NCBI GenBank assembly: GCA_029977305.1
Contig: JAPOLF010000002.1
Location: forward strand, 1 to 41,071
Reading direction: 5' to 3'
Source: a bacterium
GTDB lineage: Bacteria > Chloroflexota > Chloroflexia > Thermomicrobiales > UBA6265
Length of the DNA: 41,071 bases
A model generated the notes under the pieces. That model did no database searches. It was given only the letters and a program-made list of their open reading frames with translations, and was not told the origin of the DNA. Within the stretch, counting starts at the first letter, position 1. Every line of letters begins with the position of its first letter. Below, piece after piece: positions 13,031 to 27,593 of this stretch. The position numbers were made by a program, and so were the translations under genes.

Positions 13031-14134
13031 ATGAGAGAGATCACGGCGGACAATCTGGCGGCATTGGCGATCGGTGCCGGCATTCTCGGGACAGGTGGCG
13101 GCGGCAATCCGCGGGTGGGGATGCTCACCGCGCTGCAGCACGTGAAGGCGGGTGCGCCGATCCGGGTCGTCGGGATCGAGGAGGTTGGGGACGACGCCTT
13201 CGCGACGAGCGTGGGTGGGATGGGTGCCCCGGTCGTCTCGGTCGAGCGACTGCCGCGCGGAGATGAGCCGCTCAACGCCCTGCGTGCGCTGGAGCACCAT
13301 CTGGGTCGGGCATTCACGCATCTCATCCCCGGGGAGATCGGCGGCGCAAACAGCATGCGGCCGCTGATCGTCGCCGCGCAGACGGGCCTCCCGGTGGTCG
13401 ATGGCGACGGCATGGGCCGCGCCTTCCCGGAACTGCAGATGGACACCTTCACGATCTACGGGGTGCCCCCGACCCCGGGGGCGATTTGCGATCCGCGAGG
13501 ACACGTCGCGATCTTCGATGGCATCGCCGAGGCGCAGACGCTGGAGCGGTACGCCCGCGCGGTGACGATCCAAATGGGTGGCGCTGCCGGATATGCCTTC
13601 CCCCCGATGGATGCCGAGCAACTGCGGCGGACGACGATCCCCGGCACCATCACCCTCGCGCAGCGGATCGGCGAGGCGGTGCTCGGGGCGCGCAACGGCC
13701 GGGGCAATCCGATCGACGCGGCCTTGGCGGTCTCAGGCGGTCGGCGCCTCTTCCACGGCAAGATCACCGATGTCGAGCGGCGGTTGGAGGGTGGGTTCGC
13801 GCGGGGCATCGTGGTGATCGCCGGGGCAGACGAGGATGAGGGGCGCACGCTCCACATCGACTTCCAGAATGAGAACCTGATCGCGCGGGACGGACAGGGC
13901 GCCGTGTTGGCGGTGGTGCCCGATCTGATCTGCATCGTCGATCAGGATTCCGCCGAGCCGATCACCACCGAGTTGCTGCGCTACGGCCTTCGGGTCGCGG
14001 TGTTGGCGATCCCGGCACCGGAATTGCTGAAGACCCCCGAGGCCTTGGCGGTCGTCGGTCCGGCGGCCTTTGGCTATCCGGACGTCGCATATGAGCCGAT
14101 GGACGGCGTCTTCGGGGTTGGCGCGCACGGCTGA
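13031..14134 (+). CDS. DUF917-family protein, paralogue 1
   Basis: Start chosen at MREITADNL (367 aa). Signature blocks [39 protein letters not shown] and PDLICIVDQDSAEPITTELLRYGLRV. About two-thirds identical by eye to paralogue 2 (21623-22726). Confidence 0.85.
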   Translation: MREITADNLAALAIGAGILGTGGGGNPRVGMLTALQHVKAGAPIRVVGIEEVGDDAFATSVGGMGAPVVSVERLPRGDEPLNALRALEHHLGRAFTHLIPGEIGGANSMRPLIVAAQTGLPVVDGDGMGRAFPELQMDTFTIYGVPPTPGAICDPRGHVAIFDGIAEAQTLERYARAVTIQMGGAAGYAFPPMDAEQLRRTTIPGTITLAQRIGEAVLGARNGRGNPIDAALAVSGGRRLFHGKITDVERRLEGGFARGIVVIAGADEDEGRTLHIDFQNENLIARDGQGAVLAVVPDLICIVDQDSAEPITTELLRYGLRVAVLAIPAPELLKTPEALAVVGPAAFGYPDVAYEPMDGVFGVGAHG

Positions 14135-14233
14135 GACACGGTGTCGCGCGGGATGGCATCATAGGCGGCGCATGGTCGCGGATGCGATCGCGGCGATGGT
14201 GCTATTGCCCTCCTTGAACCGAAAGGACCTGCC

Positions 14234-15673
14234 ATGTCACCGATTTCCCGGCGCTCGCTCATCCAGTCCGCGGCGGCGCTCGCCGCGACCCCCGTGGCCG
14301 CGGAGCAGTGGTCGATCACCAGCGCCATGGCGCAAGAGCCAAGCGCGCCGATCAGCGTCTACGCCAGTGGACTTTTCACGCCGCGCGGCCTCACCTTCGG
14401 GCCGGACGGCAAGCTCTACGTGGCCCTTGGTGGAAACGGCACGGCGGGAGCGGCCCCGAGCGCGGTGCGGATCGAGGACGGATGCGGCGTGGGCGTCGCG
14501 CACGGCCAGCCCTCCACGCAGGGGATGTCCGGTGCCGTGCAGGGGCCGGGTTCGGTGGCGTTCCTCGGCGATCAGCTCTATCTCCTGCAGGACTCCGAGG
14601 ATGACCGAGGCGATCTCATCTCCACCTACCCGAATGGCGTCTACACGGTGGCCAGCGACGGCGTCTGCACCTTGCTGGCAGATGTGTCCACGTGGATGAA
14701 CGAGAACCCGACCAAGGAGATCCCGGCGGATCGCGGCAAGCTGGGCGAGACCTTCGCGATGCTCGCGGGAGACGGCTTCCTCTGGGTCATCGAATCGAAC
14801 GAGGGGCAGGTGCTGAAGGTCACCCCGGACGGCACCATCACCCGCGTCGTTGACCTCTCCGAGGGACACCCGGTTCCGACCTGCTGTGCCGCCGCCCCGG
14901 ATGGCGGGCTGTACGTCGGAAACCTCACCGACGCGCCGTACCCGACTGGCAAGGCGCAAGTGATCCATGTCAAGGCCGATGGCTCGGTCGAGACGGTCTG
15001 GACCGGGCTGACGATGCTGGTCGGCCTCGCCACGGTGGACGGCACGCTCTACGCCTGTGAGATGGCGACCAACAACACGACGCAACCGCCCTTCACCCAG
15101 CCCGGGACCGGGCGCATCGTGAAGCAAAGCGGCCCCGACAAACTGACCGAGGTTGTCTCCGAGCTCGACTTCCCGATCGGCATGACGGTGGGCCCGGACG
15201 GGTTCCTCTACGTGTCGACCCCGTCCTTCGGTGGCGATGGGCCGAGCGGGTCGGTGCTGCGGATCGATCCGTCGGCGACCTTCCTCAGTGCTCCCGCGAA
15301 TCTCTACGACAGCGCGACTTGCCCTGGGTTCCAGGAGGCGTGGAAGGCGCAGCAGTCGGTTTTCGCCACCATGACCGCGAACGCCGACAAGCCCGTGCCG
15401 ACCGCCGAGGCGGCGATCCCGGCAAACACCGCCCCGGTGACCATCGTCAACTTCACCTTCGACCCGGGAAGCCTGACGATTGACGCCGGCCGGACCGTCA
15501 CCTGGACCAACAAGGACAGCGTGCCGCACACCGCGACCTCAAAGGACGGCACGTTCGATTCGGGCAACCTGAACGAAGGCCAGTCGTTCTCGTTCACCTT
15601 CGACAAGCCGGGGACGTACGACTACATCTGCACTTACCATCCGTACATGGTCGGGACGATCGTCGTCGAGTAG
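14234..15673 (+). CDS. Tat-exported beta-propeller-like protein with C-terminal cupredoxin (amicyanin/plastocyanin-like type-1 copper) domain
   Basis: Twin-arginine signal MSPISRRSLIQSAAALAATPVAA. Repeated PRGLTFGPDGKLYVA / APDGGLYVG / GPDGFLYVS strands (NHL/SMP-30/ScyD-like propeller). The C-terminal 80 aa (15431-15670) carry TWTNKDSVPHTATS and YICTYHPYM, i.e. the His...Cys-x2-His-x2-Met copper ligand pattern (Cys codon at 15629-15631). Confidence 0.8.
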   Translation: MSPISRRSLIQSAAALAATPVAAEQWSITSAMAQEPSAPISVYASGLFTPRGLTFGPDGKLYVALGGNGTAGAAPSAVRIEDGCGVGVAHGQPSTQGMSGAVQGPGSVAFLGDQLYLLQDSEDDRGDLISTYPNGVYTVASDGVCTLLADVSTWMNENPTKEIPADRGKLGETFAMLAGDGFLWVIESNEGQVLKVTPDGTITRVVDLSEGHPVPTCCAAAPDGGLYVGNLTDAPYPTGKAQVIHVKADGSVETVWTGLTMLVGLATVDGTLYACEMATNNTTQPPFTQPGTGRIVKQSGPDKLTEVVSELDFPIGMTVGPDGFLYVSTPSFGGDGPSGSVLRIDPSATFLSAPANLYDSATCPGFQEAWKAQQSVFATMTANADKPVPTAEAAIPANTAPVTIVNFTFDPGSLTIDAGRTVTWTNKDSVPHTATSKDGTFDSGNLNEGQSFSFTFDKPGTYDYICTYHPYMVGTIVVE

Positions 15674-15741
15674 CGATTCACCCGGGCGCATCGGTCAGCG
15701 GAGGCAGAGTGCCCGTCGAAATCGCGTCATCGTCGCAGTTG

Positions 15742-15757
15742 CAGCCGCGCGCGGCTG
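15742..15757. repeat. Perfect 16-bp palindrome CAGCCGCGCGCGGCTG (possible hairpin/terminator or protein-binding site)
   Basis: Read directly from the sequence. Located 69 nt downstream of the cupredoxin-fusion stop and 117 nt upstream of the SBP start. As RNA it gives a 6-bp stem with a 4-nt loop and no U-tract. Confidence 0.3.
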
Positions 15758-15873
15758 TGGCAAGATACCGTGGGCAACGACCGGGGCGTGGAAACGGATT
15801 GCCATTTTCGCCCCGTGGAGAAGCAGACGGCGCCGGCGGTCGGCGTCGGGATAGGGTTCAGGAGGAATGACGC

Positions 15874-17562
15874 ATGTCGGTCAAGCAACTCTCTGACGAC
15901 TTGAATGCGCGGCGGATCTCGCGCCGCCGGTTCTGGCAGGGCGCAGCCGCGCTCGGCTTGACTGCGACGGGCATCAGCGTGCTCGAGCGCGGTGCGCTCG
16001 CCGCTCCGGTGCAGTTCTGGAGCGTGAATCGACAGGATGATCGCGAGCACACCCTGATCGTGGCGGTGTCCGAGAACATCGACACCTTCGACCCGGGCTT
16101 CACCGTCGGCTCGAAGACCGCGCAGACCGCGATCCAGAACACGTTCGACCAACTGACGCAGTACGAGATCGTCGATCTCGTCGCGCCGGACGGCACCCCG
16201 TACAAGGGCGTCAACACCCTCAACATCCTGCCGATGCTTGCGGAGTCGTGGACGCAGGACGGCGACAAGCTCGTCTTCACCATGCGTGACGGTGCGACCT
16301 TCTCCAATGGTGATCCGATCGACGCCAACACGATGGTCGAGGCCTACAAGCGCATCTACGAGACCAACGCGGTCTCCACCTTCCTGCTCAGCATGGGCGG
16401 CGCGGTGACCGGCGCCGATGCGTTCAGCGCCCCGGATGCGAAGACCTTCGTCATCCAGATGTCGAAGCCGAACAGCCTCGTCGCGCAGAACAACACGATG
16501 CACAACACCAGTGCATTGAACCCGAACCAGATCAAGGAAGTTGCCACCGAGGCGGATCCGTGGGGCCTCGAGTTCTTCAAGGCCAACCTCGGCATGGGCA
16601 ACGGCCCGTACATGCTCGAGTCGTACAAGCCGGACGACGCGCTGGTGATGGTCGCGAACCCGAACTACTACGGGGAGCAGCCGTTCTTCACCAAGGTCAT
16701 CCTGAAGGTTGTGCCGGACGCGTCGCAGCGCGTGCAGCTGCTGCTGAACGGCGACGTCGACATGGCCACCCAGATCCCGAAGCAGGAGTACGAGACCCTG
16801 GCGGCGAGCGATGAGATCACCGCCCTCTCGATTCCGTCGAACCTGGTCGCCATGCTCGAGATGAACACCACCCTGGCGCCGTTCGACAAGAAGGAGATCC
16901 GCCAGGCGGTCGCGTACGCGGTGCCGTACCAGGCGATCATCGACCAGGTCTTCAACGGCCAGGCGACCGAGGCGAAGAGCCTCGTCCCGAGCGGGATGCC
17001 GACCAGCGACTTCTCAACCAACATGTACACCACCGACCCGGCAAAGGCGAAGGAACTCCTCGCGGCTGGTGGCTACGACGGGACTCCGGTGAAGCTCAGC
17101 TTCAACGCCGGCATCCCTGAGTGGGAGCGCATCGCGATCCTCGTCCAGGCGGCCCTCAAGGAGGTCGGCATGGAAGTGGAGCTCGAGAAGCTGCCGTACG
17201 CGACCTTCAATGAGCTCGAGCAGGGCCGCAAGCTCCAGATGTGGACGGACGAGTGGATCTCCTGGGTCAACGATCCGTACTACCACCTGAGCTGGCTGGC
17301 CGCGTCGACGAGCCCGACCAACTACCCGAGCTTCGCCAACGAGCGGGTGGACGAGATCATCGCCGAGTTCACCCTTTCCGACCCGTCGCCCGAGAAGGAT
17401 GCGGCGAGCAAGGAAGCGCAGGCGATCATCATCGAAGAGTGCCCGTACGTCTTCCTCTGCCAGCCGAACTGGCTCTTCTACATGCGGAGTGACATCGACA
17501 ACTACGTCTACTACAACGACGAGTTGCCGCGGTACTACCACTTCACGCGCAAGAGCAGCTAG
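15874..17562 (+). CDS. ABC transporter substrate-binding protein, family 5 (peptide/nickel/opine type), Tat signal
   Basis: 562 aa. Signal RRISRRRFWQGAAALGLTATG. AGGAGG RBS. Followed by two permeases and two ATPases in Dpp/Opp order. Confidence 0.85.
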   Translation: MSVKQLSDDLNARRISRRRFWQGAAALGLTATGISVLERGALAAPVQFWSVNRQDDREHTLIVAVSENIDTFDPGFTVGSKTAQTAIQNTFDQLTQYEIVDLVAPDGTPYKGVNTLNILPMLAESWTQDGDKLVFTMRDGATFSNGDPIDANTMVEAYKRIYETNAVSTFLLSMGGAVTGADAFSAPDAKTFVIQMSKPNSLVAQNNTMHNTSALNPNQIKEVATEADPWGLEFFKANLGMGNGPYMLESYKPDDALVMVANPNYYGEQPFFTKVILKVVPDASQRVQLLLNGDVDMATQIPKQEYETLAASDEITALSIPSNLVAMLEMNTTLAPFDKKEIRQAVAYAVPYQAIIDQVFNGQATEAKSLVPSGMPTSDFSTNMYTTDPAKAKELLAAGGYDGTPVKLSFNAGIPEWERIAILVQAALKEVGMEVELEKLPYATFNELEQGRKLQMWTDEWISWVNDPYYHLSWLAASTSPTNYPSFANERVDEIIAEFTLSDPSPEKDAASKEAQAIIIEECPYVFLCQPNWLFYMRSDIDNYVYYNDELPRYYHFTRKSS

Positions 17563-17572
17563 CGCGTTTTGA

Positions 17573-17608
17573 GCCCCCCGGATCGGTGATTCCACCGGTC
17601 CGGGGGGC
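17573..17608 (+). promoter_or_regulatory. Intercistronic GC-rich stem-loop between the family-5 SBP and permease genes
   Basis: GCCCCCCGGAUCGGUG-AUUC-CACCGGUCCGGGGGGC: 16-bp stem (one G-U) with 4-nt loop, 11 nt after the SBP stop (17560-17562). No downstream U-tract. The G6 run can alternatively pair with a C6 run at 17612-17617. Confidence 0.55.
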
Positions 17609-17643
17609 CGACCCCCCACTCGCCTCACGAGGTCCGTCGCCCC

Positions 17644-18657
17644 ATGCGGATGCTCCGCTACATCCTGCGTCGACTCCTGTTCCTGGTGCCGGTGGTGCTC
17701 GGGTCGATTTTCATTGCCTTCCTGCTGACGCGGGTGGTGCCCGGGAACCCGATCGAGCGTGTTGCGGGGCCGTACGCGAGCGAGGAGCGGGTGCTCGAGA
17801 TGAAGGCGGAGGCCAATCTCGACAAGCCGATCCCGCAGCAGTTCCTGATCTATGTCAATGACTTGCTTCACGGCGACATGGGGATGTCCTATACGACGGC
17901 CCAGCCGGTCGGCAAGGACCTGAAAGAGCGGTTCCCCGCGAGCTTCGAACTGGTGATGTTCGCCATCGGGCTGGCGATCGTGCTCGCGATCCCGCTCGGG
18001 GTGGTGAGCGCGGTGAAGCGCGGGTCGTGGATCGACCATGTCGCCCGGGTGATCGCGGTCGCCGGTGTGTCAGCGCCGATCTTCTGGATCGCGATGGTGC
18101 TGCTGTCGATCTTCTACGGGAAGCTCGGCTGGCTGCCGGGATCGCAAGGGCGCCTGCCGATCATCATGTCGCCGCCACCGCACGTGACCGGCATGTACAC
18201 GATCGATGCCCTGCTCGCCGGGGATCCGGTGACCTTCAAGGAGGCGCTGCGGGCGCTGATCCTGCCGGTGTTGACGCTGGCGCTGGTCTCGATGGCGCCG
18301 ATCGCCCGGATGACGCGGGCCACGATGATCGACGCGCTCGATTCCGACTACGTGCGGACGGCGACCTCACTCGGCATCCCGCGGCGGACGGTGGTGATGA
18401 AGCACGCCTTCAAGAACGCGATCATCCCGGTGTTGACGCTGATCGCGGGCGTGATCGGGTACGCCATCGGCGGCGAGGTGCTGATCGAGCTGATCTTCTC
18501 GTGGCCGGGACTCGGGCTGTACTCCTACAACGCGATCATGAGCGCGGATTTCCCCGCCGTGCAGGGATTCATCATCCTCGCCACCTGTCTCTACATCCTC
18601 ATCTACCTGATCGTGGATGTGATCACCGCGTTGCTTGACCCGCGGGTGGAGTACTAG
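17644..18657 (+). CDS. ABC transporter permease (DppB/OppB-like)
   Basis: 337 aa. The N-terminus M(RM)LRYILRRLLFLVPVVLG is typical of DppB-type permeases. Six predicted hydrophobic spans. Confidence 0.85.
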   Translation: MRMLRYILRRLLFLVPVVLGSIFIAFLLTRVVPGNPIERVAGPYASEERVLEMKAEANLDKPIPQQFLIYVNDLLHGDMGMSYTTAQPVGKDLKERFPASFELVMFAIGLAIVLAIPLGVVSAVKRGSWIDHVARVIAVAGVSAPIFWIAMVLLSIFYGKLGWLPGSQGRLPIIMSPPPHVTGMYTIDALLAGDPVTFKEALRALILPVLTLALVSMAPIARMTRATMIDALDSDYVRTATSLGIPRRTVVMKHAFKNAIIPVLTLIAGVIGYAIGGEVLIELIFSWPGLGLYSYNAIMSADFPAVQGFIILATCLYILIYLIVDVITALLDPRVEY

Positions 18658-18659
18658 CG

Positions 18660-19553
18660 ATGAGCGCCACTGCCGCCCAGCCCGAGGCCACGTACGCGCT
18701 GCGCCCGCCGTTCTCCGAGCGGTGGCGACAGGGGATGCGGGCGCTCCGGGCGAATCCGACCGCGGTCGTCGGCCTGGTCATCGTGGTGGCCCTGGTGCTG
18801 ATCGCGATCTTCGCGCCGGTCATCGCGCCCTACGATCCGCAGAAACTCGACATGGAGGTGGTCAGCCAGCCGCCTTCGTCGGCGCACTGGTTCGGCACCG
18901 ATCAGTTCGGGCGCGATGTGCTCTCGTTGGTGATCTGGGGTGCGCGGCTCGATCTCTTCATCGCGCTCTCGGCGGTGATCCTGTCGATGGTCGTCGGCAC
19001 GGTGATCGGCGCGGTCTCCGCCTACGCGGGTGGGATGACCGATGAGATCACGATGCGCACGATGGACATCCTGCAGGCGTTCCCGCGCTTCATCTTCGCG
19101 ATGGGTATCGCGTTCGCGATCGGGCCCGGGATCGGGACGGTGGTGATCGCGACCTCGGTGTTGAACATCCCCGGGTACGCCCGCCTGATGCGTTCGGTGA
19201 TGCTCCCGGCGCGCAAGAGCCAGTACGCCGCCGCCGCCACCTCGGTTGGCGGCTCCCATACCAACGTGTTGTTCCGCCACCTGGTGCCGAACTGCCTGGT
19301 GCCGATCTTCGTGAACTCGACGTTGCAGTTCGGCTGGGCGATTCTCGAGGCGGCGGGGCTGTCCTTCATCGGCCTCGGCGTGGAGAGCTCCGCGGCCGAG
19401 TGGGGCGCGCTGATCCAGCTCGGGTTCCAGGACTTCAACGCCGGCCACTGGTGGATCTACACCTTCCCGGGTCTGGCGATCGCGGTGGCGGTGCTCGGCT
19501 TCAACCTGCTCGGTGATGGCCTGCAGGACATGCTCGATCCGAGGCGGCAGTAA
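18660..19553 (+). CDS. ABC transporter permease (DppC/OppC-like)
   Basis: 297 aa. PSSAHWFGTDQFGRDVLS is the conserved DppC N-terminal periplasmic motif. Starts 2 nt after the preceding stop. Confidence 0.85.
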   Translation: MSATAAQPEATYALRPPFSERWRQGMRALRANPTAVVGLVIVVALVLIAIFAPVIAPYDPQKLDMEVVSQPPSSAHWFGTDQFGRDVLSLVIWGARLDLFIALSAVILSMVVGTVIGAVSAYAGGMTDEITMRTMDILQAFPRFIFAMGIAFAIGPGIGTVVIATSVLNIPGYARLMRSVMLPARKSQYAAAATSVGGSHTNVLFRHLVPNCLVPIFVNSTLQFGWAILEAAGLSFIGLGVESSAAEWGALIQLGFQDFNAGHWWIYTFPGLAIAVAVLGFNLLGDGLQDMLDPRRQ

Positions 19554-21612: not shown

Positions 21613-21622
21613 CGGACCGCGC

Positions 21623-22726
21623 CTAGCCGCGGAGCCCGCTGCCGAAGACGCCGGGCATCGGGATGAATTCCACCTCCGGATACCCGAATGCGGCAGGACC
21701 GACGACACGCAGCGCCTCGGGGGTCTTCAGCATCTCGCTGGCCGGGATCGCCATCACGACGACGCGCATGCCGTACCGCAGGATCTCGGTGGTGATCGGT
21801 TCGGCCGAGTCTTGATCCACGATGCAGATGAGATCCGGGACCACCGCGAGCACGGCACCGGTGTCGTCCCGCGCGATGAGGTTCTCGTTCTGGAAGTCGA
21901 TGACCATCGCGCGGTCGCGGTCGGGGCCGATGCCCTCGAGATGGAGGACGCCGCGGGCGAAACCGCCGACGAGGCGGCGCGAGACGTCGACGATCTTGCC
22001 GTGGAAGAGGCGCTCGCCTCCCGCGACGGCGAGCGCGGCGTCCACCGGATCGCCGGTGCCACCGCGAGCCGCGAGCACCGCCTCGCCGATCTTGGTCGCC
22101 AGGGTGTAGGTGCCGGCCACGGTGGTGCGGCGGAGCTCGGCGGCGGTCATCGGCGGGAAGGCGTAGCCGCTGGAGGCGCCCATCTCGACGCAGACGACCC
22201 GGGCGTAGCGTTCGAGGGTCTGGGCGTCGTCGATGCCGTCGAACGTGACGACGTGGCCGCGCGGATCGGCGATGGCCGCCGGCGTCGGGGCGACGCCGTA
22301 GATGGTGAAGGTGTCCATCTGGAGCTCGGGGAAGGCGCGACCCATGCCGTCACCGTCGATCACGGGCAGGCCGGTCTGGGCGCCGACGATGAGGGGTGCC
22401 ATGGAGTTGATACCGCCGATCTCGCTGGCGATGAGGTGGGTGAAGCGGCGACCGATGTGGTCCTCGAGCGCGCGCATGGCGAGCAGCGGCTCGTCGCCGC
22501 GGTTGATGCGTTCATTCGAGACGATGGGTGCGCCCATGTTGCCGACGGTGGTGGCGTAGGCGTCGTCACCGATCTCGTCGAGCGAGACGACGGTGATGGA
22601 GCGCCCGGCGCGCAGGTGGGTGAGTGCCTCGAGTTTGCCGACGAAGGGGTTGCCGCCGCCTCCGGTGCCGAGGATGCCAGCCCCGATGGCGAGTGCTTCG
22701 AGCATCGATTCCGTCACCTGGTACAT
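21623..22726 (-). CDS. DUF917-family protein, paralogue 2
   Basis: 367 aa. [39 protein letters not shown] and PDLICIVDQDSAEPITTEILRYGMRV. Collinear with paralogue 1 over its full length. Confidence 0.85.
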   Translation of the reverse strand: MYQVTESMLEALAIGAGILGTGGGGNPFVGKLEALTHLRAGRSITVVSLDEIGDDAYATTVGNMGAPIVSNERINRGDEPLLAMRALEDHIGRRFTHLIASEIGGINSMAPLIVGAQTGLPVIDGDGMGRAFPELQMDTFTIYGVAPTPAAIADPRGHVVTFDGIDDAQTLERYARVVCVEMGASSGYAFPPMTAAELRRTTVAGTYTLATKIGEAVLAARGGTGDPVDAALAVAGGERLFHGKIVDVSRRLVGGFARGVLHLEGIGPDRDRAMVIDFQNENLIARDDTGAVLAVVPDLICIVDQDSAEPITTEILRYGMRVVVMAIPASEMLKTPEALRVVGPAAFGYPEVEFIPMPGVFGSGLRG

Positions 22727-22904
22727 GAACCGTCGACTCCTTGGTGATCATCGTGATCCGTTCCGCGCGCCGCGACGAGCAGGTCGCGTGCGAAGCCAGG
22801 GAAGCATCGCATGAACGCTCCGTGCGCGGTGATAAGATCGTCTCGGCGACGCGGGAAAGAGGCGTCGCGCGATCGGGATTCGCCTCAGCAATCGGGAGAG
22901 ACAG

Positions 22905-24458
22905 ATGAGTCTGCGCATCGGCATCGACGTCGGCGGAACGAACACCGACGCCGTCCTCATGGACGATTTGAAAGTAGTTTCCAAGATCAAGACGCCGACG
23001 ACCGCGGACGTGACCACGGGCATCACCAACGGCCTCAAGTTCGTGCTCGAGAGCTCCGGCACCGCAACCTCTGCGGTGAACGGCGTGATGATCGGCACCA
23101 CCCATTTCACCAATGCGGTGGTGGAGCGACGCCGCCTGCAGAAGACGGCCGCGGTGCGACTCGGGTTGCCGGCGACGGCGGCCCTTCCTCCGATGGTTGA
23201 CTGGCCGCAGGACCTTGCCGACACGATCGGCGGCAACAACTACCTCTGCCACGGTGGCCATGAGTTCGACGGGCGCCCGATCTCCGCCCTGCGGCCGGAT
23301 GAGATCAAGGCGGTTGCCGAGGATCTGAACGCGAAGGGGATCACCGCGGTCGCGGTCTCCTCGGTCTTCTCGCCGGTCAACACAGACCTCGAAAATGAGG
23401 TCGCGGCGATGCTCCGCGAGTGGGTGCCGGGTGTCTCGGTCACTCCGTCGCACGAGATCGGGCGCATCGGCCTGCTCGAGCGCGAGAATGCGGCCATCCT
23501 CAATGCCTGCCTGCGGCAACTGGCGGCCGAAACCGTTGCCGCCTTCCGCAAGGCGATCAGCGACATGGGGATCACCGCGCCGCTCTATCTGACCCAGAAC
23601 GACGGCACCCTGATGAGCGCGGAGTTCGCCGAGCAGTACCCGGTGCTGACCTTCGCGTCGGGACCGACGAACTCGATGCGTGGCGCCGCCTTCCTCTCGG
23701 GGTTGAAGGACGCCATGGTGGTTGACGTGGGCGGCACGACGTCGGACGTCGGCGCGCTGACCCACGGCTTCCCGCGTGAGGCATCGGTGGCCGTTGATAT
23801 CGGCGGGGTGCGCACCAACTTCCGCATGCCGGACGTCTTCTCGTTCGGCTTGGGCGGCGGCTCGCTGGTGAAGGAGGACCCGCTGCGGATCGGGCCGCAG
23901 TCGGTCGGCTTCCGGATCACGCAGGAGGCCTTGGTCTTCGGTGGCAACACCTTGACGACCACCGACATCGCGGTGGCCGCGGGTGTCGCTGAGATCGGCG
24001 ATCCCTCGCGCGTCGCCCACCTCGACAAGGCGCTGGTCGCGGCGGCCATGGCTCGCATCCAAGAAATGAGCGAGGCGGCGGTCGACCGGATGAAGACGAG
24101 TGCGGAGCCGGTTCCGGTGATCGTGGTCGGCGGCGGCAGCGTCCTGATCGCGAAGCCGCTTGCCGGGGCATCGGAGATGGTGAAGCCGAACCATTACGAG
24201 GCCGCCAACGCGGTCGGCGCGGCGATCGCGCAGATCTCTGGCGAGGTCGATCGGGTCTATTCGCTGGCGGGGATGTCCCGCGACGCGGCGCTCGACGATG
24301 CGAAGAGTGAGGCATCGCAGAAGGCCGTTGAGGCGGGGGCCGACCCCTCGACGGTGCAGATCGTCGACGTCGAGGACGTGCCGCTGGCGTACCTGCCGGG
24401 CAACGCGACGCGGATCCGGGTGAAGGCGGTGGGGGACCTCACGCTGGTGGGGAGGTAA
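22905..24458 (+). CDS. Hydantoinase/oxoprolinase-family ATPase, short HyuA-like form with no adjacent HyuB partner
   Basis: 517 aa. ASKHA motifs RIGIDVGGTNTDAVL and MVVDVGGTTSDVGAL. GGGAGAG RBS. About 160 aa shorter than the canonical HyuA at 10498-12531. Followed after a 3-nt gap by DUF917 paralogue 3. Confidence 0.8.
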   Translation: MSLRIGIDVGGTNTDAVLMDDLKVVSKIKTPTTADVTTGITNGLKFVLESSGTATSAVNGVMIGTTHFTNAVVERRRLQKTAAVRLGLPATAALPPMVDWPQDLADTIGGNNYLCHGGHEFDGRPISALRPDEIKAVAEDLNAKGITAVAVSSVFSPVNTDLENEVAAMLREWVPGVSVTPSHEIGRIGLLERENAAILNACLRQLAAETVAAFRKAISDMGITAPLYLTQNDGTLMSAEFAEQYPVLTFASGPTNSMRGAAFLSGLKDAMVVDVGGTTSDVGALTHGFPREASVAVDIGGVRTNFRMPDVFSFGLGGGSLVKEDPLRIGPQSVGFRITQEALVFGGNTLTTTDIAVAAGVAEIGDPSRVAHLDKALVAAAMARIQEMSEAAVDRMKTSAEPVPVIVVGGGSVLIAKPLAGASEMVKPNHYEAANAVGAAIAQISGEVDRVYSLAGMSRDAALDDAKSEASQKAVEAGADPSTVQIVDVEDVPLAYLPGNATRIRVKAVGDLTLVGR

Positions 24459-24461
24459 CCC

Positions 24462-25556
24462 ATGCGGCAGGTCACGTCGGAAGATCTGAATGACATTGCC
24501 CTCGGGGCGGCGGTGCTCGGCACCGGTGGTGGCGGCGATCCGTACATCGGGAAGTTGATGGCGCAGTCCTCGATGGCCACGCACGGCGCGGCGACGATGA
24601 TGTATGCCGACGAACTCGACGATGACGACCTTGTCATCCCCTCGGCGATGATGGGTGCGCCGACGGTGATGGTCGAGAAGGTGCCGTCGGGGAAAGAGAT
24701 TGTCACCGCGTTCAAGGCACTGACCGAGTACTACGGGAAGGAGCCGCGGGCGACGATGTCCTGCGAGGCGGGCGGGCTCAATTCGACCACCCCGTTCACG
24801 GTGGCGGTCGAACTCGGGATCCCGATCGTCGACGCCGACATGATGGGCCGGGCCTTCCCTGAGTTGCAGATGTGCACGCCGACCCTTGCGGGCATCAACG
24901 CGACTCCCATGGCTGTTGCGGATGAGAAAGGCAACAGCGTCATCATCAACACCGTCGAGAACCGATGGACCGAGACGTTCGCTCGGACGCTCACCGTCGA
25001 CATGGGGTGCTCCGCGATGATCGCGCTGTACGCCATGACCGGGAAGCAGGTGAAGGAGGCGTGCGTGCTCGGCACGATCTCCTACGCCGAGCGGATCGGG
25101 CAGGCGATCCGGCGGGCACGGGCGAACCACCTCGACCCGGTGGAGACGGTGCGTGCGGCGACCGGTGGCTACATCCTCTGGCAGGGAAAAGTGGGGGATG
25201 TCGCGCGGCGGACCGAGACGGGATTCGCGCGAGGCGATGCCCGCATCGACGGCACCGGGGCGTTCGACGGACGATCGCTGTCGCTCTCGTTCCAAAATGA
25301 ATTCCTGATTGCGCGAGACGGTGACACCGTGCTAGCGACGACGCCCGACCTGATCACCGTGCTCGATGCGGAGACCGGCGTGGCGATCACGACCGAGACG
25401 CTGCGGTACGGCTACCGGGTGGTGGTGATCGCGATGCCGTGTGACCCGCGGTGGCGCACGGCTGAGGGGTTGCAACTCGTCGGCCCGGATTACTTCGGCT
25501 ACGGGGTGCCGTACATCCCGGTCGAGCAGCGGATGAAGGCGCTCGGCGGGCGCTGA
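24462..25556 (+). CDS. DUF917-family protein, paralogue 3 (diverged)
   Basis: 364 aa. [37 protein letters not shown] and PDLITVLDAETGVAITTETLRYGYRV. Shares the family blocks but is clearly more distant from paralogues 1 and 2. Confidence 0.8.
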   Translation: MRQVTSEDLNDIALGAAVLGTGGGGDPYIGKLMAQSSMATHGAATMMYADELDDDDLVIPSAMMGAPTVMVEKVPSGKEIVTAFKALTEYYGKEPRATMSCEAGGLNSTTPFTVAVELGIPIVDADMMGRAFPELQMCTPTLAGINATPMAVADEKGNSVIINTVENRWTETFARTLTVDMGCSAMIALYAMTGKQVKEACVLGTISYAERIGQAIRRARANHLDPVETVRAATGGYILWQGKVGDVARRTETGFARGDARIDGTGAFDGRSLSLSFQNEFLIARDGDTVLATTPDLITVLDAETGVAITTETLRYGYRVVVIAMPCDPRWRTAEGLQLVGPDYFGYGVPYIPVEQRMKALGGR

Positions 25557-25566
25557 GGACACGACG

Positions 25567-25899
25567 ATGACCAACAACGAGAACCAGACCACCTATGTGC
25601 TCACCGAGGAACAGGCGCTCGACATGCTGGCGTTCCTCGCCAGCGCGGCGGAGATCTCGCTGCACGAGCCGACCTATTACGGGACCTTCCGCCTGATCGA
25701 CGCGGCGAGTCGCCTGATGGGGTACCTCCTCGAGAGCAACCCGGAGCTCGCAGAGTCGTTCATGCCGGGGTGGAAGCAAGACATTGACACCCGAAAGGTG
25801 TGGATGATGTGGGACCGCCCCGCGTACCAGCAGTTCCTCAAGGAGGCGCCTGCGGTGATCGCCGCCGAGATCAAGCAGCGGCAGGAGGCGGCGGAATGA
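25567..25899 (+). CDS. Small conserved-looking hypothetical protein (110 aa), no family assignable by eye
   Basis: ATG ORF with host-like codon usage, 10 nt after the DUF917-3 stop. Its stop overlaps the nitroreductase start (ATGA at 25896-25899). Predicted soluble and helical (LTEEQALDMLAFLASAAEISLHEPTYYGTFRLIDAASRLMGYLLE). No TM segment or signal peptide. Confidence 0.6.
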   Translation: MTNNENQTTYVLTEEQALDMLAFLASAAEISLHEPTYYGTFRLIDAASRLMGYLLESNPELAESFMPGWKQDIDTRKVWMMWDRPAYQQFLKEAPAVIAAEIKQRQEAAE

Positions 25900-26468
25900 G
25901 CGAGTTCAGCCCGGAGGCGGACGCCTTCTTCCAGACGCTGAAGACGCGGCGCGTGTGCCGGTCCTACACCGATCAACCGGTCGCCGATGCGCAGTTGCGG
26001 CGCATCACCGAGGCCGGACGATGGGCCAGCAGCGGCGGCAACCGACACATCCACAAGTTCCTGATCGTGCGGGATGCCGAGACGATTCGGCGGGTGCGGT
26101 CGGTGGCGCCGGGGATGCTGGTGGAACCGCCGGCGATGATCGTGATCCTGACCGACAAAGAGGCCGCCGAGCGGGAATGCATCCAACTTGATGTGGATCA
26201 GATCAACCAAGGGGATGTCGGCACCGCGGCCATGAACATGCAGAACATGGCCCATGCGCTCGGACTCGGATCGTGCCCGGTGACCTCCTTCAGCCACTCC
26301 GGCGTCGGGGTGATGCTCGGCTTGCCCGACCATCTCGAAGCGGAGTGGATCATCATGATCGGCCATCCGAAGCCGACCCAGCGCGGGCTCGGCACCGGTG
26401 CGCCGAAGCCGCTGACCGCGCGCGATCTCACGTGGTGGGACCGCGTCGGACACCACGATCCTGTCTAA
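25896..26468 (+). CDS. Nitroreductase-family FMN-dependent oxidoreductase
   Basis: Start chosen at MSEFSPEADAFF (190 aa). TRRVCRSYTDQPV...LRRITEAGRWASSGGNRH and the later LGLGSCPV are typical nitroreductase-fold blocks. The track ORF start at 25800 lies inside the previous gene. Confidence 0.8.
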   Translation: MSEFSPEADAFFQTLKTRRVCRSYTDQPVADAQLRRITEAGRWASSGGNRHIHKFLIVRDAETIRRVRSVAPGMLVEPPAMIVILTDKEAAERECIQLDVDQINQGDVGTAAMNMQNMAHALGLGSCPVTSFSHSGVGVMLGLPDHLEAEWIIMIGHPKPTQRGLGTGAPKPLTARDLTWWDRVGHHDPV

Positions 26469-26507
26469 AAGAGTCGCCACGCGAACCCCACGAGGAGCCC
26501 TCACACG

Positions 26508-27593
26508 ATGAGTATGACGTTGCACATCGAAGACCTGCCTGATCTCGCGCGCGGCGCGGCCTTCCTCGGGAGCGGCGGCGGCGGCAACCCGTACATCGGG
26601 CGGCTGATGGTCGAGCGGGCGATGCGCGAAACCGGACGCCCGCTGGAACTCTTGGATCTCGAGGAACTCCCCGACGACGCCTTCGTGATCACGACCGCGA
26701 TGATGGGTGCGCCCACCTGCATCGTGGAGAAGCTGCCGGAGGGGATGGAGGCTGCCCACTCGCTGCGGCGGCTGGAGGAGCACCTTGGTCGCAAGGCGAC
26801 GGCGACGATGCCGATCGAGGCGGGCGGGGTGAACTCGATGATCCCGCTGGTGGTGGGGATGCGGCTCGGGTTGCCGGTCGTCGATGGCGACGGTATGGGC
26901 CGGGCTTTCCCGGAGCTCTATCACGAGACCTTCCACATTTACGGGGTCTCGGGCACGCCCATGGTGATCACCAATGATCATGGCGACCAGACGCTGCTCG
27001 ACACCCATGACAATTACATGATGGAGTGGCTCTCGCGCGGGATCGCGATCCGGATGGGAGGCGTCGCGTACATCGCCGAGTACCCGATGGACGGGGCGAC
27101 CGCGAAGCGCGTCTCGGTGAGCGGGACGATCGGAATGGGTCTGCGGATCGGGCGCGCGATCCGCGAGGCACGCGAGCAGCACCTCGATCCGTTCGACCAC
27201 CTGATCCGGTCGATGGAGGGGACGAGCTACTCCCCGGCGCGGGTGATCTTCACCGGGAAGTTGATCGAGGTGTTCCGGCGGACCAAGGACGGTTTCGCGC
27301 TCGGGACGGTGAAGATTCAGGAGCTGGGCGGTCCGCGGGTGATGACCATCGACTTCCAGAACGAGAACCTCATAGCGATGGTTGATGACGAGGTGCTGGC
27401 CGTCGTGCCGAACCTGATCAACATTCTCGATGCGGAGACCGCGGAGCCGATCACCACCGAGGAGTTGCGCTACGGGCAGCGGGTGAAGGTGATGGTGGTC
27501 TCGGTGCCGCCGATCATGCGCACCCCGGAGGCGATTGCCGTGTGGGGGCCGCGAACGTTCGGATACGACGTCGATTTCGAGCCGCTCACCTGA
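26508..27593 (+). CDS. DUF917-family protein, paralogue 4 (diverged)
   Basis: 361 aa. [39 protein letters not shown] and [26 protein letters not shown]. Confidence 0.8.

What the first reader, a model, noticed from the sequence alone, without database searches (positions are those of the whole stretch)
13031..27593. Four diverged DUF917-family paralogues within 14.6 kb, embedded among hydantoinase-type ATPases
Four ORFs (13031-14134 +, 21623-22726 -, 24462-25556 +, 26508-27593 +) share the same signature blocks: GTGGGG(N/D)P near the N-terminus, D(G/A)D(G/M)MGRAFPEL(Q/Y), FQNE-LIA, and P(D/N)LI--(L/V)D------ITTE--RYG-RV. Copies 1 and 2 are close to each other, while 3 and 4 are much more distant, so this is an old, substrate-diversified paralogue set rather than a recent duplication. 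DUF917 (Pfam PF06032) is, to my knowledge, barely characterised biochemically. My recollection, which needs checking, is that the Pfam entry was renamed after an S-methyl-thiohydantoin desulfurase. The genes sit beside a canonical HyuA/HyuB pair, a B-less HyuA-like ATPase, a nitroreductase, a NodB-type hydrolase and two ABC importers. This looks like an undescribed catabolic island for hydantoin/thiohydantoin-like or other cyclic amide N-heterocycles whose substrates are unknown.
Basis: partly seen in the sequence, partly recalled or inferred. Interest (0 to 1): 0.7.

Follow-up and report, generated by a model that had tools for sequence, protein, structure and literature searches.

The report
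Four DUF917 genes with partner ATPase
The four look-alike genes are real members of a barely studied enzyme family (DUF917), and comparative genomics shows the family works as a unit with a short hydantoinase-type ATPase encoded beside them, probably to break down imported ring-shaped amides such as cyclic dipeptides.

Summary
Observation confirmed. All four ORFs carry both S-Me-THD-like/DUF917 domains (PF06032 and PF20906, E below 1e-55). Copies 1 and 2 are 73% identical; all other pairs are 41-48%. They fall into three old clades (A: #1, #2; B: #3; C: #4) that also occur together in other bacterial phyla and in haloarchaea.

They are not thiohydantoin desulfurases: they score 85-119 bits against cut-offs of 440-450.

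The conserved partner is the B-less, 517-aa HyuA-like ATPase at 22905-24458, not the canonical HyuA/HyuB pair.
- Its homologue occurs in 71 of 80 DUF917-anchored genome loci.
- In the reverse test, 48 of 49 evaluable ATPase-anchored metagenome loci carry a DUF917 gene.
- Thirty of the top 150 family representatives are ATPase-DUF917 fusions; the ten I looked up include animal, fungal and protist proteins.

The "nitroreductase" plus the overlooked DUF6092 gene is an AlbA/AlbB-like cyclodipeptide-oxidase pair. The gene set Opp-type importer, ATPase, clade B, clade C and oxidase recurs in other lineages. A 2024 paper already noted the link between these oxidases, DUF917 and Opp transporters.

Best reading (inferred): an ATP-dependent two-component enzyme for cyclic amides in which DUF917 takes the place of HyuB, possibly acting on diketopiperazines. 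It is biochemically uncharacterised but very widespread, so this window is one instance of it.

The parts
13031..14134 (+). DUF917 / S-Me-THD-like paralogue #1 (clade A). It is a lone copy, divergent from the ABM-HyuA-HyuB operon.
   Evidence: PF06032 and PF20906, E 6.5e-56 and 2.7e-69. 72.8% identical to #2. Clade A in the NJ tree. Its closest orthologues in Thermomicrobiales MAGs are also lone copies with unconserved neighbours.
21623..22726 (-). DUF917 paralogue #2 (clade A), divergently transcribed from the short HyuA gene across a 178-bp intergenic region.
   Evidence: The same divergent arrangement, clade A gene facing HyuA-short, is found in L001, L005, L051, L083 and L084.
22905..24458 (+). 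Short, B-less HyuA-like ASKHA ATPase ('HyuA-short', 517 aa). It is the conserved partner of the DUF917 genes.
   Evidence: Hydant_A_N matches over its full length; Hydantoinase_A matches profile positions 1-210 of 291; there is no Hydant_A_C. Both phosphate-binding motifs are present: GIDVGGTNTD and VVDVGGTTSD. 28% identical to the window's full HyuA. Best PDB relatives are N-methylhydantoinase 7hk5, then 6yra, 5l9w and 5svb. Linkage and fusion evidence.
24462..25556 (+). DUF917 paralogue #3 (clade B), starting 3 nt after the HyuA-short stop codon.
   Evidence: Clade B. AF2 model with pLDDT 88 and pTM 0.89, whose only significant PDB match is 2o3i.
25567..25899 (+). CDOB-like small subunit (DUF6092, PF19585) of a cyclodipeptide-oxidase-like flavoenzyme.
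   Evidence: PF19585, E 2.4e-13. Its only PDB hits are AlbB chains 9exv_C (E 3e-4) and 8uc3_D. It keeps the EPxxYGTFR motif with the Tyr that aligns to the catalytic Tyr of AlbB.
25896..26468 (+). CDOA-like nitroreductase-fold subunit (190 aa). Its ATG overlaps the CDOB stop codon (ATGA).
   Evidence: Best PDB hit is albonoursin synthase AlbA 8uc3_A, E 8.7e-24. Start confirmed by sequence and by the gene call in the 99%-identical locus L081. It keeps AlbA R24 and R28. It has Asp in place of the covalent-FMN Cys115, which the paper reports is absent from CDOAs outside CDPS clusters.
26508..27593 (+). DUF917 paralogue #4 (clade C), immediately downstream of the CDO pair.
   Evidence: Clade C together with L001, L074, actinobacterial and haloarchaeal copies. 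Orthologues at 64-77% identity sit next to CDOA in L074, L087, L088, L097 and L140.
15874..21612 (+). Opp/Dpp-type ABC importer: SBP_bac_5, two permeases, two ATPases.
   Evidence: Opp permeases accompany the HyuA-short/DUF917 module in 28 of 80 and 25 of 80 loci. Orthologues at 46-60% identity form 'SBP5-OppBCDF-HyuAshort-B-C-CDOA' in L074, L087, L088 and L097. The binding protein matches no specific equivalog.
8780..12926 (-). Canonical HyuB (8780-10480), full-length HyuA (10498-12570) and an ABM-domain protein (12567-12926). Possibly an accessory to the pathway; not a conserved partner.
   Evidence: Closest NCBIfam models are caprolactamase CapA/CapB, but below cut-off (520 and 248 bits against 1000). 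A HyuB homologue is present in only 5 of 80 and 4 of 80 loci. However, 61-62% orthologues follow the CDO gene in L088, and a full HyuA follows in L140.
27653..28585 (+). Polysaccharide-deacetylase-family (NodB-fold) hydrolase. It lies in the same transcription direction, and its membership in the unit is uncertain.
   Evidence: PF01522, E 4e-17. Only a weak hit to the PuuE allantoinase model, 70 bits against 425. Homologues occur near the module only in L004 and L005 among 80 genome loci.

Best explanation
The four genes are paralogues of the S-Me-THD-like (DUF917) family and represent three ancient clades: A (#1 and #2), B (#3) and C (#4). In this subfamily the DUF917 protein is the substrate-processing half of a two-component enzyme. 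The other half is the short, HyuB-less HyuA-type ATPase at 22905-24458.

Proposed mechanism (inferred). It follows ATP-dependent hydantoinase, oxoprolinase and caprolactamase. The ASKHA ATPase phosphorylates the carbonyl oxygen of a stable cyclic amide or ureide. DUF917 then takes the role that HyuB plays in canonical systems: it carries out addition-elimination at that activated sp2 carbon, opening or transforming the ring. This is the same formal chemistry as the C2-S hydrolysis done by the two characterised family members, with phosphate as leaving group instead of H2S or CH3SH.

In this window the module sits in a probable operon, HyuA-short, #3, CDOB, CDOA, #4. Copy #2 is divergent from it and an Opp/Dpp-type importer lies next door. 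The likely substrates are therefore imported peptide-derived heterocycles. 2,5-Diketopiperazines and their CDO-dehydrogenated products are the leading candidates; 5-substituted hydantoins come second. The different clades would provide different substrate or step specificities while sharing one ATPase.

Shown: family membership, clade structure, near-obligate reciprocal linkage, ATPase-DUF917 fusions, CDO identity, and recurrence of the cluster. Inferred: ATP coupling to DUF917 chemistry, ring opening, substrate class, and catabolic direction.
For: Family: PF06032 and PF20906 in all four. The invariant core is kept in all 122 copies compared (G22-G25, E72, E102, N107, D126, MGRA128-131, P133, E172, R176, E281), so no clade is degenerate.

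Clades: the NJ tree has three clades that each mix phyla. Orthologues in other phyla (50-65% identity) are closer than the within-window paralogues (41-48%). Haloarchaeal operons carry B, HyuA-short, C, A.

Linkage: a HyuA-short homologue is present in 71 of 80 DUF917-anchored genome loci and lies within 300 bp in 61. Reciprocally, 67 of 80 HyuA-short-anchored metagenome loci carry DUF917, and 48 of 49 of those with at least 1.2 kb of flank on both sides. The one exception, L086, ends inside the Opp operon that precedes the DUF917 genes in L074.

Fusions: 30 of the best 150 50%-cluster representatives are 700-1450-aa proteins with HyuA-short (full length in most, partial in about seven truncated entries) followed by a full DUF917. 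Of the ten looked up, nine are eukaryotic (abalone, Fusarium, Hyaloraphidium, Anaeramoeba, Pelomyxa, Ancoracysta, an MMETSP protist) and one is an unassigned JGI/IMG metagenome protein; the other twenty were not looked up.

ATPase competence: both ASKHA phosphate motifs are intact, and the protein is 47-67% identical between bacteria and archaea over all 517 residues.

Tight gene spacing in the window: 3 nt, 10 nt, a 4-nt overlap, then 39 nt.

Substrate hints: CDOA's best PDB hit is AlbA and CDOB's only hits are AlbB. A CDO pair is present in 3 of 80 and 9 of 80 loci. 'Opp-HyuAshort-B-C-CDO' recurs in L074, L087, L088 and L097. The CDO/DUF917/Opp enrichment is published.

Independent literature: permease/DUF917/hydantoinase triplets in C. 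difficile (co-regulated) and in L. rhamnosus.
Against: No biochemical data exist for any HyuA-linked DUF917.

As I recall (Beliaeva et al., ACS Chem Biol 2021; the paper could not be retrieved), the characterised desulfurases work without ATP. DUF917 may therefore have autonomous chemistry, with the ATPase doing a separate step.

The DUF917 fold shows no detectable similarity to HyuB or to any hydrolase of known mechanism; only 2o3i matches. 'Replaces HyuB' thus rests on gene context alone.

Copy #1 and its closest orthologues have no adjacent ATPase.

The periphery of the module varies widely: NCS1 permeases, Mo-hydroxylases, racemases, SDRs, luciferase-like monooxygenases. Substrates clearly differ between lineages, and the diketopiperazine assignment applies at best to the CDO/Opp-linked subset.

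The SBP_bac_5 protein has no specific ligand assignment.

All characterised CDOs are biosynthetic, not catabolic.
Confidence: 0.5

Rival explanations
1. The DUF917 paralogues are stand-alone, ATP-independent hydrolases or desulfurases for thio- or S-alkyl-substituted imidazolones and related heterocycles, as in ergothioneine catabolism. The neighbouring ATPase catalyses an unrelated step. This is essentially the first reader's thiohydantoin idea.
For: The only named equivalogs in the family are thiohydantoin desulfurase and S-methyl thiohydantoin desulfurase, and the Pfam names derive from them. Copy #1 and its orthologues occur without an adjacent ATPase. All four keep the family's invariant core.
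Against: Scores are 85-119 bits against cut-offs of 440-450. None of the roughly 31 annotated genes in the window is an ergothionase or thiourocanate-hydratase type. The near-obligate reciprocal adjacency and the ATPase-DUF917 fusion proteins are hard to explain if the two proteins act independently.
Confidence: 0.15
2. The region is a biosynthetic or tailoring cluster for a modified cyclic dipeptide or hydantoin-type natural product. The CDO-like enzyme introduces a dehydro bond, and HyuA-short/DUF917 performs an ATP-driven cyclisation or ring modification.
For: Every characterised CDO is biosynthetic. [quoted passage not shown] ATP-dependent HyuA-type enzymes could in principle run in the condensing direction.
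Against: The window has no CDPS, NRPS or other scaffold-forming gene. The linked transporters are binding-protein-dependent importers (SBP_bac_5 Opp/Dpp) or NCS1 uptake permeases. The module occurs across bacterial phyla and archaea, with fused forms in animals, fungi and protists, and its neighbours are of catabolic type: Mo-hydroxylases, aminotransferase, racemase. CDOA lacks the Cys115 that is typical of biosynthetic CDOs.
Confidence: 0.12
3. The paralogues are not substrate-diversified enzymes. They are subunits of one hetero-oligomeric complex with HyuA-short, comparable to the alpha/beta/gamma subunits of acetone or acetophenone carboxylases.
For: Clades A, B and C are co-retained in single operons in distant lineages. 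HyuAshort-A-B occurs in alphaproteobacteria, Deinococcota and Chloroflexota; B-HyuAshort-C-A occurs in haloarchaea. At least two DUF917 genes are present in 34 of 80 and 36 of 80 loci.
Against: Forty-six of 80 genome loci, and every fusion protein examined, carry a single DUF917 with a single ATPase, so one copy is sufficient. All clades keep the full invariant core, with no degenerate scaffolding subunit. Copy numbers range from 1 to 5.
Confidence: 0.15

Closest known systems
Thiohydantoin desulfurase and S-methyl thiohydantoin desulfurase (NCBIfam NF058529 and NF058532; namesakes of Pfam PF06032/PF20906). From my memory, these belong to bacterial ergothioneine and S-methyl-ergothioneine catabolism.
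   Same: Same two-domain family and the same glycine-rich and acidic core motifs. The formal chemistry is probably related: addition-elimination at an sp2 ring carbon bearing a leaving group.
   Different: Only 85-119 bits against equivalog cut-offs of 440-450. No ergothioneine-pathway neighbours. The window's subfamily is tied to an ATPase, which the characterised enzymes are not known to need (from memory; not testable here).
ATP-dependent HyuA/HyuB enzymes: N-methylhydantoinase (PDB 7hk5), 5-oxoprolinase/caprolactamase (6yra), acetone and acetophenone carboxylases (5svb, 5l9w).
   Same: HyuA-short has the Hydant_A_N and Hydantoinase_A ASKHA core with intact phosphate motifs, and these enzymes are its best PDB relatives. 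The proposed logic, ATP activation of a stable amide followed by processing on a partner protein, is theirs.
   Different: HyuA-short has 517 aa instead of about 690, lacks Hydant_A_C, and has a family-specific conserved C-terminal 125 aa. Its partner is DUF917, whose fold is unrelated to HyuB by Foldseek. Fusions are HyuA-short::DUF917 rather than HyuA::HyuB.
Cyclodipeptide oxidase AlbAB and the 'non-CDPS' CDO gene clusters described in Nat Commun 2024;15:3574 (PMC11055893).
   Same: The window has a CDOA/CDOB pair with overlapping genes, the FMN-phosphate arginines and the CDOB Tyr motif. The cluster content, DUF917 plus an Opp/Dpp ABC transporter, matches the enrichment that paper reports.
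   Different: No CDPS gene is present. There is no covalent-FMN Cys115. Gene order is B then A rather than A then B. In the section I read, the paper's only use of 'hydantoinase' is to describe DUF917. It says sequence and structure comparisons suggest DUF917 proteins are hydantoinases; my fold search finds no similarity to any hydantoinase.
CV_3147 of Chromobacterium violaceum (PDB 2o3i), a structural-genomics DUF917 structure.
   Same: It is the only solved structure of the family. TM-score 0.80 to the model of #3, E 3e-23. It shares GSGGGG, DxDxxGR and QNE.
   Different: 24% identity. It has AGRAVPS where the HyuA-linked copies have the invariant MGRAFPE. Its function is unknown, so it does not help with mechanism.

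Membership tests
Pfam S-Me-THD-like / DUF917 (PF06032 + PF20906) | Both the N- and C-terminal domain models matched above the gathering score | tested here: met
   All four ORFs: 188-201 bits (N) and 215-235 bits (C) against a cut-off of 27, with full-length profile coverage.
Pfam S-Me-THD-like / DUF917 (PF06032 + PF20906) | Family fold as in PDB 2o3i | tested here: met
   AF2 model of #3 (pLDDT 88) matches 2o3i with E 2.7e-23 and TM 0.80. No other PDB chain scores below E 0.05.
Thiohydantoin desulfurase (NCBIfam NF058529, equivalog) | Score at or above the curated cut-off of 440 bits | tested here: not met
   84-101 bits for the four proteins.
S-methyl thiohydantoin desulfurase (NCBIfam NF058532, equivalog) | Score at or above the curated cut-off of 450 bits | tested here: not met
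   85-119 bits.
Ergothioneine-catabolic desulfurase context | Neighbouring ergothionase and thiourocanate hydratase genes (pathway recalled from memory) | tested here: not met
   Pfam and NCBIfam annotation of all roughly 31 genes in the window shows no aromatic-lyase or urocanase-type gene.
HyuA subunit of ATP-dependent hydantoinase/oxoprolinase (gene 22905-24458) | Hydant_A_N and Hydantoinase_A ASKHA domains with nucleotide-phosphate motifs | tested here: met
   136 and 97 bits against cut-offs of 25 and 23. Motifs GIDVGGTNTD and VVDVGGTTSD are present.
HyuA subunit of ATP-dependent hydantoinase/oxoprolinase (gene 22905-24458) | C-terminal Hydant_A_C domain and a partner HyuB (PF02538) gene | tested here: not met
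   No Hydant_A_C hit, and Hydantoinase_A is matched only to profile position 210 of 291. The adjacent genes are DUF917, not HyuB. A HyuB homologue is present in only 5 of 80 and 4 of 80 related loci.
HyuA subunit of ATP-dependent hydantoinase/oxoprolinase (gene 22905-24458) | Substrate-dependent ATP hydrolysis | not testable with these tools
   Requires enzymology.
Cyclodipeptide oxidase (AlbAB type; genes 25567-26468) | A nitroreductase-fold CDOA plus a PF19585 CDOB, encoded by adjacent or overlapping genes | tested here: met
   CDOA's best PDB hit is AlbA, E 8.7e-24. CDOB matches PF19585 at E 2.4e-13 and its only PDB hits are AlbB chains. There is a 4-nt ATGA overlap, with gene order B then A.
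Cyclodipeptide oxidase (AlbAB type; genes 25567-26468) | Catalytic and FMN residues: AlbA R24/R28, AlbB Y37, AlbA S54, AlbA C115 | tested here: inconclusive
   R24, R28 and the CDOB Tyr (EPTYYGTFR) are conserved. S54 is Gly and C115 is Asp. The paper reports that C115 is absent from CDOAs outside CDPS clusters.
Cyclodipeptide oxidase (AlbAB type; genes 25567-26468) | Location in a CDPS biosynthetic cluster, and activity on cyclodipeptides | tested here: not met
   No CDPS gene in the window. Activity cannot be tested here.

The most novel reading that the evidence does not exclude
HyuA-short plus DUF917 is a new class of ATP-dependent cyclic-amide hydrolase in which a DUF917 protein replaces HyuB. 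It is present in bacteria and archaea, with fused forms in eukaryotes. In CDO/Opp-linked clusters like this one, it would form, together with a catabolic cyclodipeptide oxidase, the first genetically defined pathway for uptake and degradation of 2,5-diketopiperazines. The paralogous clades A, B and C would set side-chain or stereochemical specificity.
Probability: 0.25. Interest if true: 0.8.

Novelty: new variant of a known kind. Interest (0 to 1): 0.55.

Why it matters
DUF917 is a large family: 5,844 cluster representatives at 50% identity match at E 1e-3 or better. Only one narrow branch of it, the thiohydantoin desulfurases, has a known function.

The data here show that a major branch is locked to a truncated hydantoinase-type ATPase. 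The two genes are adjacent in bacteria and archaea, and many family representatives are single fused proteins, including ones from molluscs, fungi and protists. That defines a concrete, testable two-component enzyme and a minimal construct to express.

If the ATP-coupled ring-opening idea holds, it adds a second partner type, unrelated in fold, to the HyuA/HyuB paradigm. If the CDO/Opp-linked clusters act on cyclic dipeptides, they would supply genes for diketopiperazine catabolism. As far as I recall, that activity has been described for decades without assigned genes. It would also give a physiological role to the 88% of CDO operons that lack a cyclodipeptide synthase.

The window itself is only one, fairly rich, example: four paralogues from all three clades, one ATPase, a CDO pair and an importer.

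Tried and rejected
1. Thiohydantoin or S-methyl thiohydantoin desulfurase assignment. Rejected: scores are far below the equivalog cut-offs and the pathway context is absent.
2. DUF917 as a structural relative of HyuB or of classical hydantoinases. Foldseek against the PDB finds only 2o3i, and profile and sequence searches of the PDB also find only 2o3i.
3. Canonical HyuA/HyuB as the conserved partner. Rejected: 5 of 80 and 4 of 80 loci. It does recur after the CDO gene in L088 and L140 and may be an accessory in this cluster type.
4. NodB-type deacetylase as a conserved member. Rejected: 2 of 80 loci.
5. The prokaryotic 'long' DUF917 proteins P0072 and P0003 as natural fusions. Rejected: they are frameshift or assembly artefacts. 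Genuine fusions came from the representative search.
6. Zero-nucleotide gaps in L027 and L055 as fusions. Rejected: the two genes are in different frames (my arithmetic on the coordinates).
7. Clade-specific diagnostic residues. None passed an 85% threshold, and all clades share the same invariant core.
8. Ligand prediction for the SBP_bac_5 protein. Only generic Nik/Dpp/Opp similarity.
9. Promoter and terminator scan of 12500-30200. Not above the shuffled expectation.
10. Literature. Only six papers in the searchable library mention DUF917. Nothing was found for 'thiohydantoin desulfurase' or for a diketopiperazine-hydantoinase link. The Beliaeva et al. 2021 paper could not be retrieved.
11. 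Neighbours of lone clade-A orthologues (L004, L006-L008). No conserved context.

Full report
**1. The observation**

The window is 67% GC, and real genes stand out by third-position GC of 0.8-0.93. ORFs exist at 13031-14134 (+), 21623-22726 (-), 24462-25556 (+) and 26508-27593 (+). Each matches both Pfam S-Me-THD_N (PF06032, the former DUF917) and S-Me-THD_C (PF20906) over the whole profile, with E between 1e-55 and 1e-70.

Pairwise identity is 72.8% for #1 vs #2 and 41.5-47.9% for all other pairs.

**2. Gene map of the window**

| Coordinates | Strand | Product |
|---|---|---|
| 139-1290 | - | SolA-like amine oxidase |
| 1405-2289 | - | class II aldolase |
| 2329-3345 | + | PfkB kinase |
| 3347-4159 | - | creatininase-family protein |
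| 4156-5370 | - | DgaE-like PLP lyase |
| 5540-8747 | + | polar amino-acid ABC system |
| 8780-10480 | - | HyuB |
| 10498-12570 | - | full-length HyuA |
| 12567-12926 | - | ABM protein |
| 13031-14134 | + | DUF917 #1 |
| 14234-15673 | + | ScyE-like propeller with a cupredoxin domain |
| 15874-21612 | + | Opp/Dpp-type ABC importer |
| 21623-22726 | - | DUF917 #2 |
| 22905-24458 | + | 517-aa HyuA-like ATPase without Hydant_A_C ('HyuA-short') |
| 24462-25556 | + | DUF917 #3 |
| 25567-25899 | + | DUF6092 |
| 25896-26468 | + | nitroreductase-fold protein |
| 26508-27593 | + | DUF917 #4 |
| 27653-28585 | + | polysaccharide-deacetylase family |
| 28592-30022 | + | GH4 alpha-galactosidase-like |
| 30079-35121 | + | large helicase-nuclease |

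Gene spacing from HyuA-short to #4 is 3 nt, 10 nt, a 4-nt overlap, then 39 nt, so these five genes are probably one operon. A JGI metagenome contig (L081) carries the same arrangement at 99% protein identity, and its independent gene calls agree with these starts. The closest genome relatives are Thermomicrobiales MAGs at about 72% identity.

**3.

The nitroreductase-fold protein's best PDB hit is albonoursin synthase AlbA (8uc3_A, E 8.7e-24). The small DUF6092 protein upstream hits only AlbB chains in the PDB (9exv_C, E 3e-4). PF19585/DUF6092 is the CDOB family according to Nat Commun 2024;15:3574.

The two genes overlap by ATGA. The CDOA keeps the FMN-phosphate arginines R24 and R28. It lacks the covalent-FMN Cys115, which that paper reports only for CDOAs in cyclodipeptide-synthase (CDPS) clusters. 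The CDOB keeps the EPxxYGTFR tyrosine that aligns with the catalytic Y37 of AlbB.

The same paper reports that 88% of 274 CDO operons lack a CDPS gene and are enriched in DUF917, hydantoin racemase, AroM and Opp/Dpp transporters. The association seen in this window is therefore already in the literature as a bioinformatic observation, without biochemistry.

**4. They are not thiohydantoin desulfurases**

NCBIfam holds two equivalog models in this family: thiohydantoin desulfurase (NF058529, cut-off 440) and S-methyl thiohydantoin desulfurase (NF058532, cut-off 450). The four proteins score 84-119 bits. No ergothioneine-pathway genes are present in the window. The proteins belong to the family but not to its characterised branch.

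**5. The conserved partner is the short HyuA**

A genome scan with the four-paralogue profile returned 580 confirmed relatives. I analysed the best 80 loci with 10-kb flanks, which come from bacteria of many phyla and from archaea. tblastn with all window proteins gave these counts:

| Feature | Loci out of 80 |
|---|---|
| HyuA-short homologue (46-81% identical, full length) present | 71 |
| HyuA-short within 300 bp of a DUF917 gene | 61 |
| Two or more DUF917 genes (maximum five) | 34 |
| Opp permeases | 28 |
| CDO genes | 3 |
| Canonical HyuB | 5 |

The reciprocal test was anchored on a HyuA-short profile in metagenome contigs. DUF917 is present in 67 of 80 loci, and in 48 of 49 loci with at least 1.2 kb of flank on both sides. 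The single exception, L086, ends inside an Opp operon that in L074 separates HyuA-short from its DUF917 genes. CDO genes appear in 9 of 80 loci, Opp in 25 of 80 and HyuB in 4 of 80.

Published tables independently show permease/DUF917/hydantoinase triplets in C. difficile (co-regulated) and in L. rhamnosus.

**6. Fusions**

A search of 1.84 billion cluster representatives found 5,844 family members at E 1e-3 or better and 1,549 at 1e-30 or better. Thirty of the best 150 are 700-1450-aa proteins consisting of HyuA-short (38-53% identical; residues about 3-514 in most, partial in about seven truncated entries) followed by a full DUF917 (35-44% identical).

I looked up ten of them. Nine are eukaryotic: Haliotis, Fusarium solani, Hyaloraphidium, Anaeramoeba, Pelomyxa, Ancoracysta and an MMETSP protist. 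One is a JGI/IMG metagenome protein with no organism given. All are annotated as uncharacterised or as 'hydantoinase'. The other twenty were not looked up.

Together with the reciprocal adjacency, this is strong evidence that HyuA-short and DUF917 form one functional unit. Two apparent prokaryotic fusions, P0072 and P0003, are frameshift or assembly artefacts.

**7. Paralogue structure**

An NJ tree of 122 DUF917 copies resolves three clades: A (#1, #2), B (#3) and C (#4). Each contains several phyla. Orthologues in other phyla are closer to the window copies than the window copies are to each other: #4 is 60% identical to Kribbella and 65% to L074, and #3 is 61% to a Thermaceae MAG, against 41-48% within the window.

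Recurrent operons are HyuAshort-A-B (alphaproteobacteria, Deinococcota, Chloroflexota) and B-HyuAshort-C-A (haloarchaea). The gene set Opp-HyuAshort-B-C-CDO recurs in L074, L087, L088 and L097, with Opp proteins 46-60% identical to the window's. L140 has HyuAshort-B-CDOB-CDOA-x-C-HyuA(full), with the same B-then-A CDO order as the window.

All 122 copies keep the same invariant core (G22-G25, E72, E102, N107, D126, MGRA128-131, P133, E172, R176, E281), so no clade looks like a dead subunit. Copy #1 and its closest orthologues are lone genes with unconserved neighbours. Its position next to the canonical HyuA/HyuB operon is lineage-specific.

**8. Structure**

An AF2 model of #3 (pLDDT 88, pTM 0.89) matches only the structural-genomics entry 2o3i (E 3e-23, TM 0.80). 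Nothing else in the PDB scores below E 0.05, and sequence and profile searches agree. DUF917 is therefore not detectably related in fold to HyuB or to amidohydrolase-type hydantoinases. This does not support the statement in PMC11055893 that sequence and structure comparisons suggest DUF917 proteins are hydantoinases.

HyuA-short has intact ASKHA phosphate motifs. Its best PDB relatives are N-methylhydantoinase, caprolactamase/oxoprolinase and acetone/acetophenone carboxylase subunits. It is 47-67% identical between bacteria and archaea along its whole length, including a C-terminal 125 residues with no Pfam model.

**9. How it most likely works**

Shown:
- a DUF917 subfamily obligately coupled to a truncated HyuA-type ATPase;
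- three old clades, with all three present here;
- embedding with a CDO-like flavoenzyme and a peptide-type importer in a cluster that recurs in other lineages.

Inferred: by analogy with HyuA/HyuB enzymes, the ATPase O-phosphorylates a stable cyclic amide or ureide. DUF917 then performs addition-elimination at the activated carbon, in place of HyuB, leading to ring opening. This parallels the C2-S hydrolysis catalysed by the characterised desulfurases, with phosphate as leaving group. That chemistry and its ATP independence are recalled from Beliaeva et al. 2021, which I could not retrieve.

Substrates in this cluster type are most plausibly imported 2,5-diketopiperazines, possibly after CDO dehydrogenation, or 5-substituted hydantoins. 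Elsewhere the module sits with NCS1 permeases, Mo-hydroxylases and racemases, so substrates differ between lineages.

My confidence by step:

| Claim | Confidence |
|---|---|
| HyuA-short and DUF917 are one functional unit | about 0.85 |
| ATP-coupled cyclic-amide processing | about 0.5 |
| Diketopiperazine as substrate | about 0.25-0.3 |

The rivals are stand-alone hydrolases, a biosynthetic tailoring cluster, and an obligate hetero-oligomer of the clades. They are weighed in the report sections.

**10. Novelty and verdict**

The family, the CDO pair and their statistical association are known. The window's proteins are uncharacterised members. The HyuA-short/DUF917 unit is, as far as the searchable literature shows (six papers mention DUF917), biochemically undescribed.

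I rate the finding a new variant of a known kind: a HyuA-type ATP-dependent system with a non-HyuB partner. It is of moderate interest as a finding in this window, because the module is extremely widespread and this is one instance. It is of higher interest as a lead, because the fusion and linkage data define a directly testable enzyme.

Noticed in passing
window 30079-35121 (+): A 1680-aa DUF4011 / SF1-helicase / MTES_1575 nuclease / DUF3320 protein. It matches the PADLOC candidate single-gene defence system PDC-S37 end to end (1136 bits) and partly matches Hhe (562 bits). It lies directly downstream of the catabolic genes and is also present in L081.
   Followed up: partly
window 25567-26468; L081, L130, L140 versus L025, L066, L085, L097: The CDO-like pair occurs in two gene orders. 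In the window and its nearest relatives it is CDOB then CDOA, with an ATGA overlap. Other lineages have CDOA then CDOB, and the characterised AlbAB genes are, as I recall, also A then B. In L082 and L130 the CDOB-CDOA pair follows HyuA-short directly, with no DUF917 between them.
   Followed up: partly
window 22905-24458, residues 393-517: The C-terminal 125 residues or so of HyuA-short have no Pfam coverage, yet they contain many columns invariant between bacteria and archaea (for example VGGG 408-411, N435, Y496, P498, K507). This region is a candidate docking site for DUF917, replacing the Hydant_A_C domain of canonical HyuA.
   Followed up: no
window 14234-15673 (+): A ScyD/ScyE-family beta-propeller (160 bits against a cut-off of 80) fused to a C-terminal amicyanin-like cupredoxin domain. 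It sits between DUF917 #1 and the Opp operon. Whether it relates to the cluster is unknown.
   Followed up: no
window 139-5370 and 37469-38503: A group of genes suggesting amino-sugar-acid or N-alkyl-amino-acid catabolism. They are a SolA-type N-methyl-L-tryptophan oxidase (476 bits against a cut-off of 257), a class II aldolase, a PfkB kinase, a creatininase-family hydrolase (below the cut-offs for creatininase, MftE and IolN), a DgaE-like PLP ammonia-lyase, and a NagB-II/GlmS-C-like SIS protein. The creatininase-family gene is another cyclic-amide-hydrolase-type fold in the same window.
   Followed up: partly
window 8780-12926 (-); L088 10503-13539; L140 5522-6985; L074 13089-13808: Orthologues of the window's canonical HyuA/HyuB (61-62% identical in L088) lie immediately after the CDO gene in other 'Opp-HyuAshort-B-C-CDO' clusters. 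Canonical HyuAB is rare around DUF917 in general, but it may be an accessory of this particular cluster type. The closest named relatives are caprolactamase CapA/CapB, well below cut-off.
   Followed up: partly
proteins P0194/P0227 and P0271/P0273 (Haliotis), P0257 (Fusarium solani), P0198/P0208 (Anaeramoeba): Eukaryotic HyuA-short::DUF917 fusion proteins occur in an animal (abalone, with two tandem-numbered paralogues), in fungi and in anaerobic protists. All are annotated as uncharacterised. Whether they arose by horizontal transfer, and what they do in eukaryotes, is open.
   Followed up: no
L042 (Anaerolineae MAG) 3115-11071; L043: These loci hold the largest paralogue arrays seen. L042 has five DUF917 genes (three clade-B-like in tandem plus two clade-A-like) around one HyuA-short; L043 has four. 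Both lie next to Opp ATPase genes. The window's four copies are therefore not the extreme.
   Followed up: no
P0072 (549 aa) and P0003 (544 aa) from the protein database: Apparent long DUF917 proteins in metagenome data are artefacts. P0072 is the C-terminus of HyuA-short joined by frameshifted junk to DUF917. P0003 is a chimera of a clade-B-like copy and a second DUF917 copy resembling #4 (clade C). They are a caution against reading domain architectures from such entries.
   Followed up: yes
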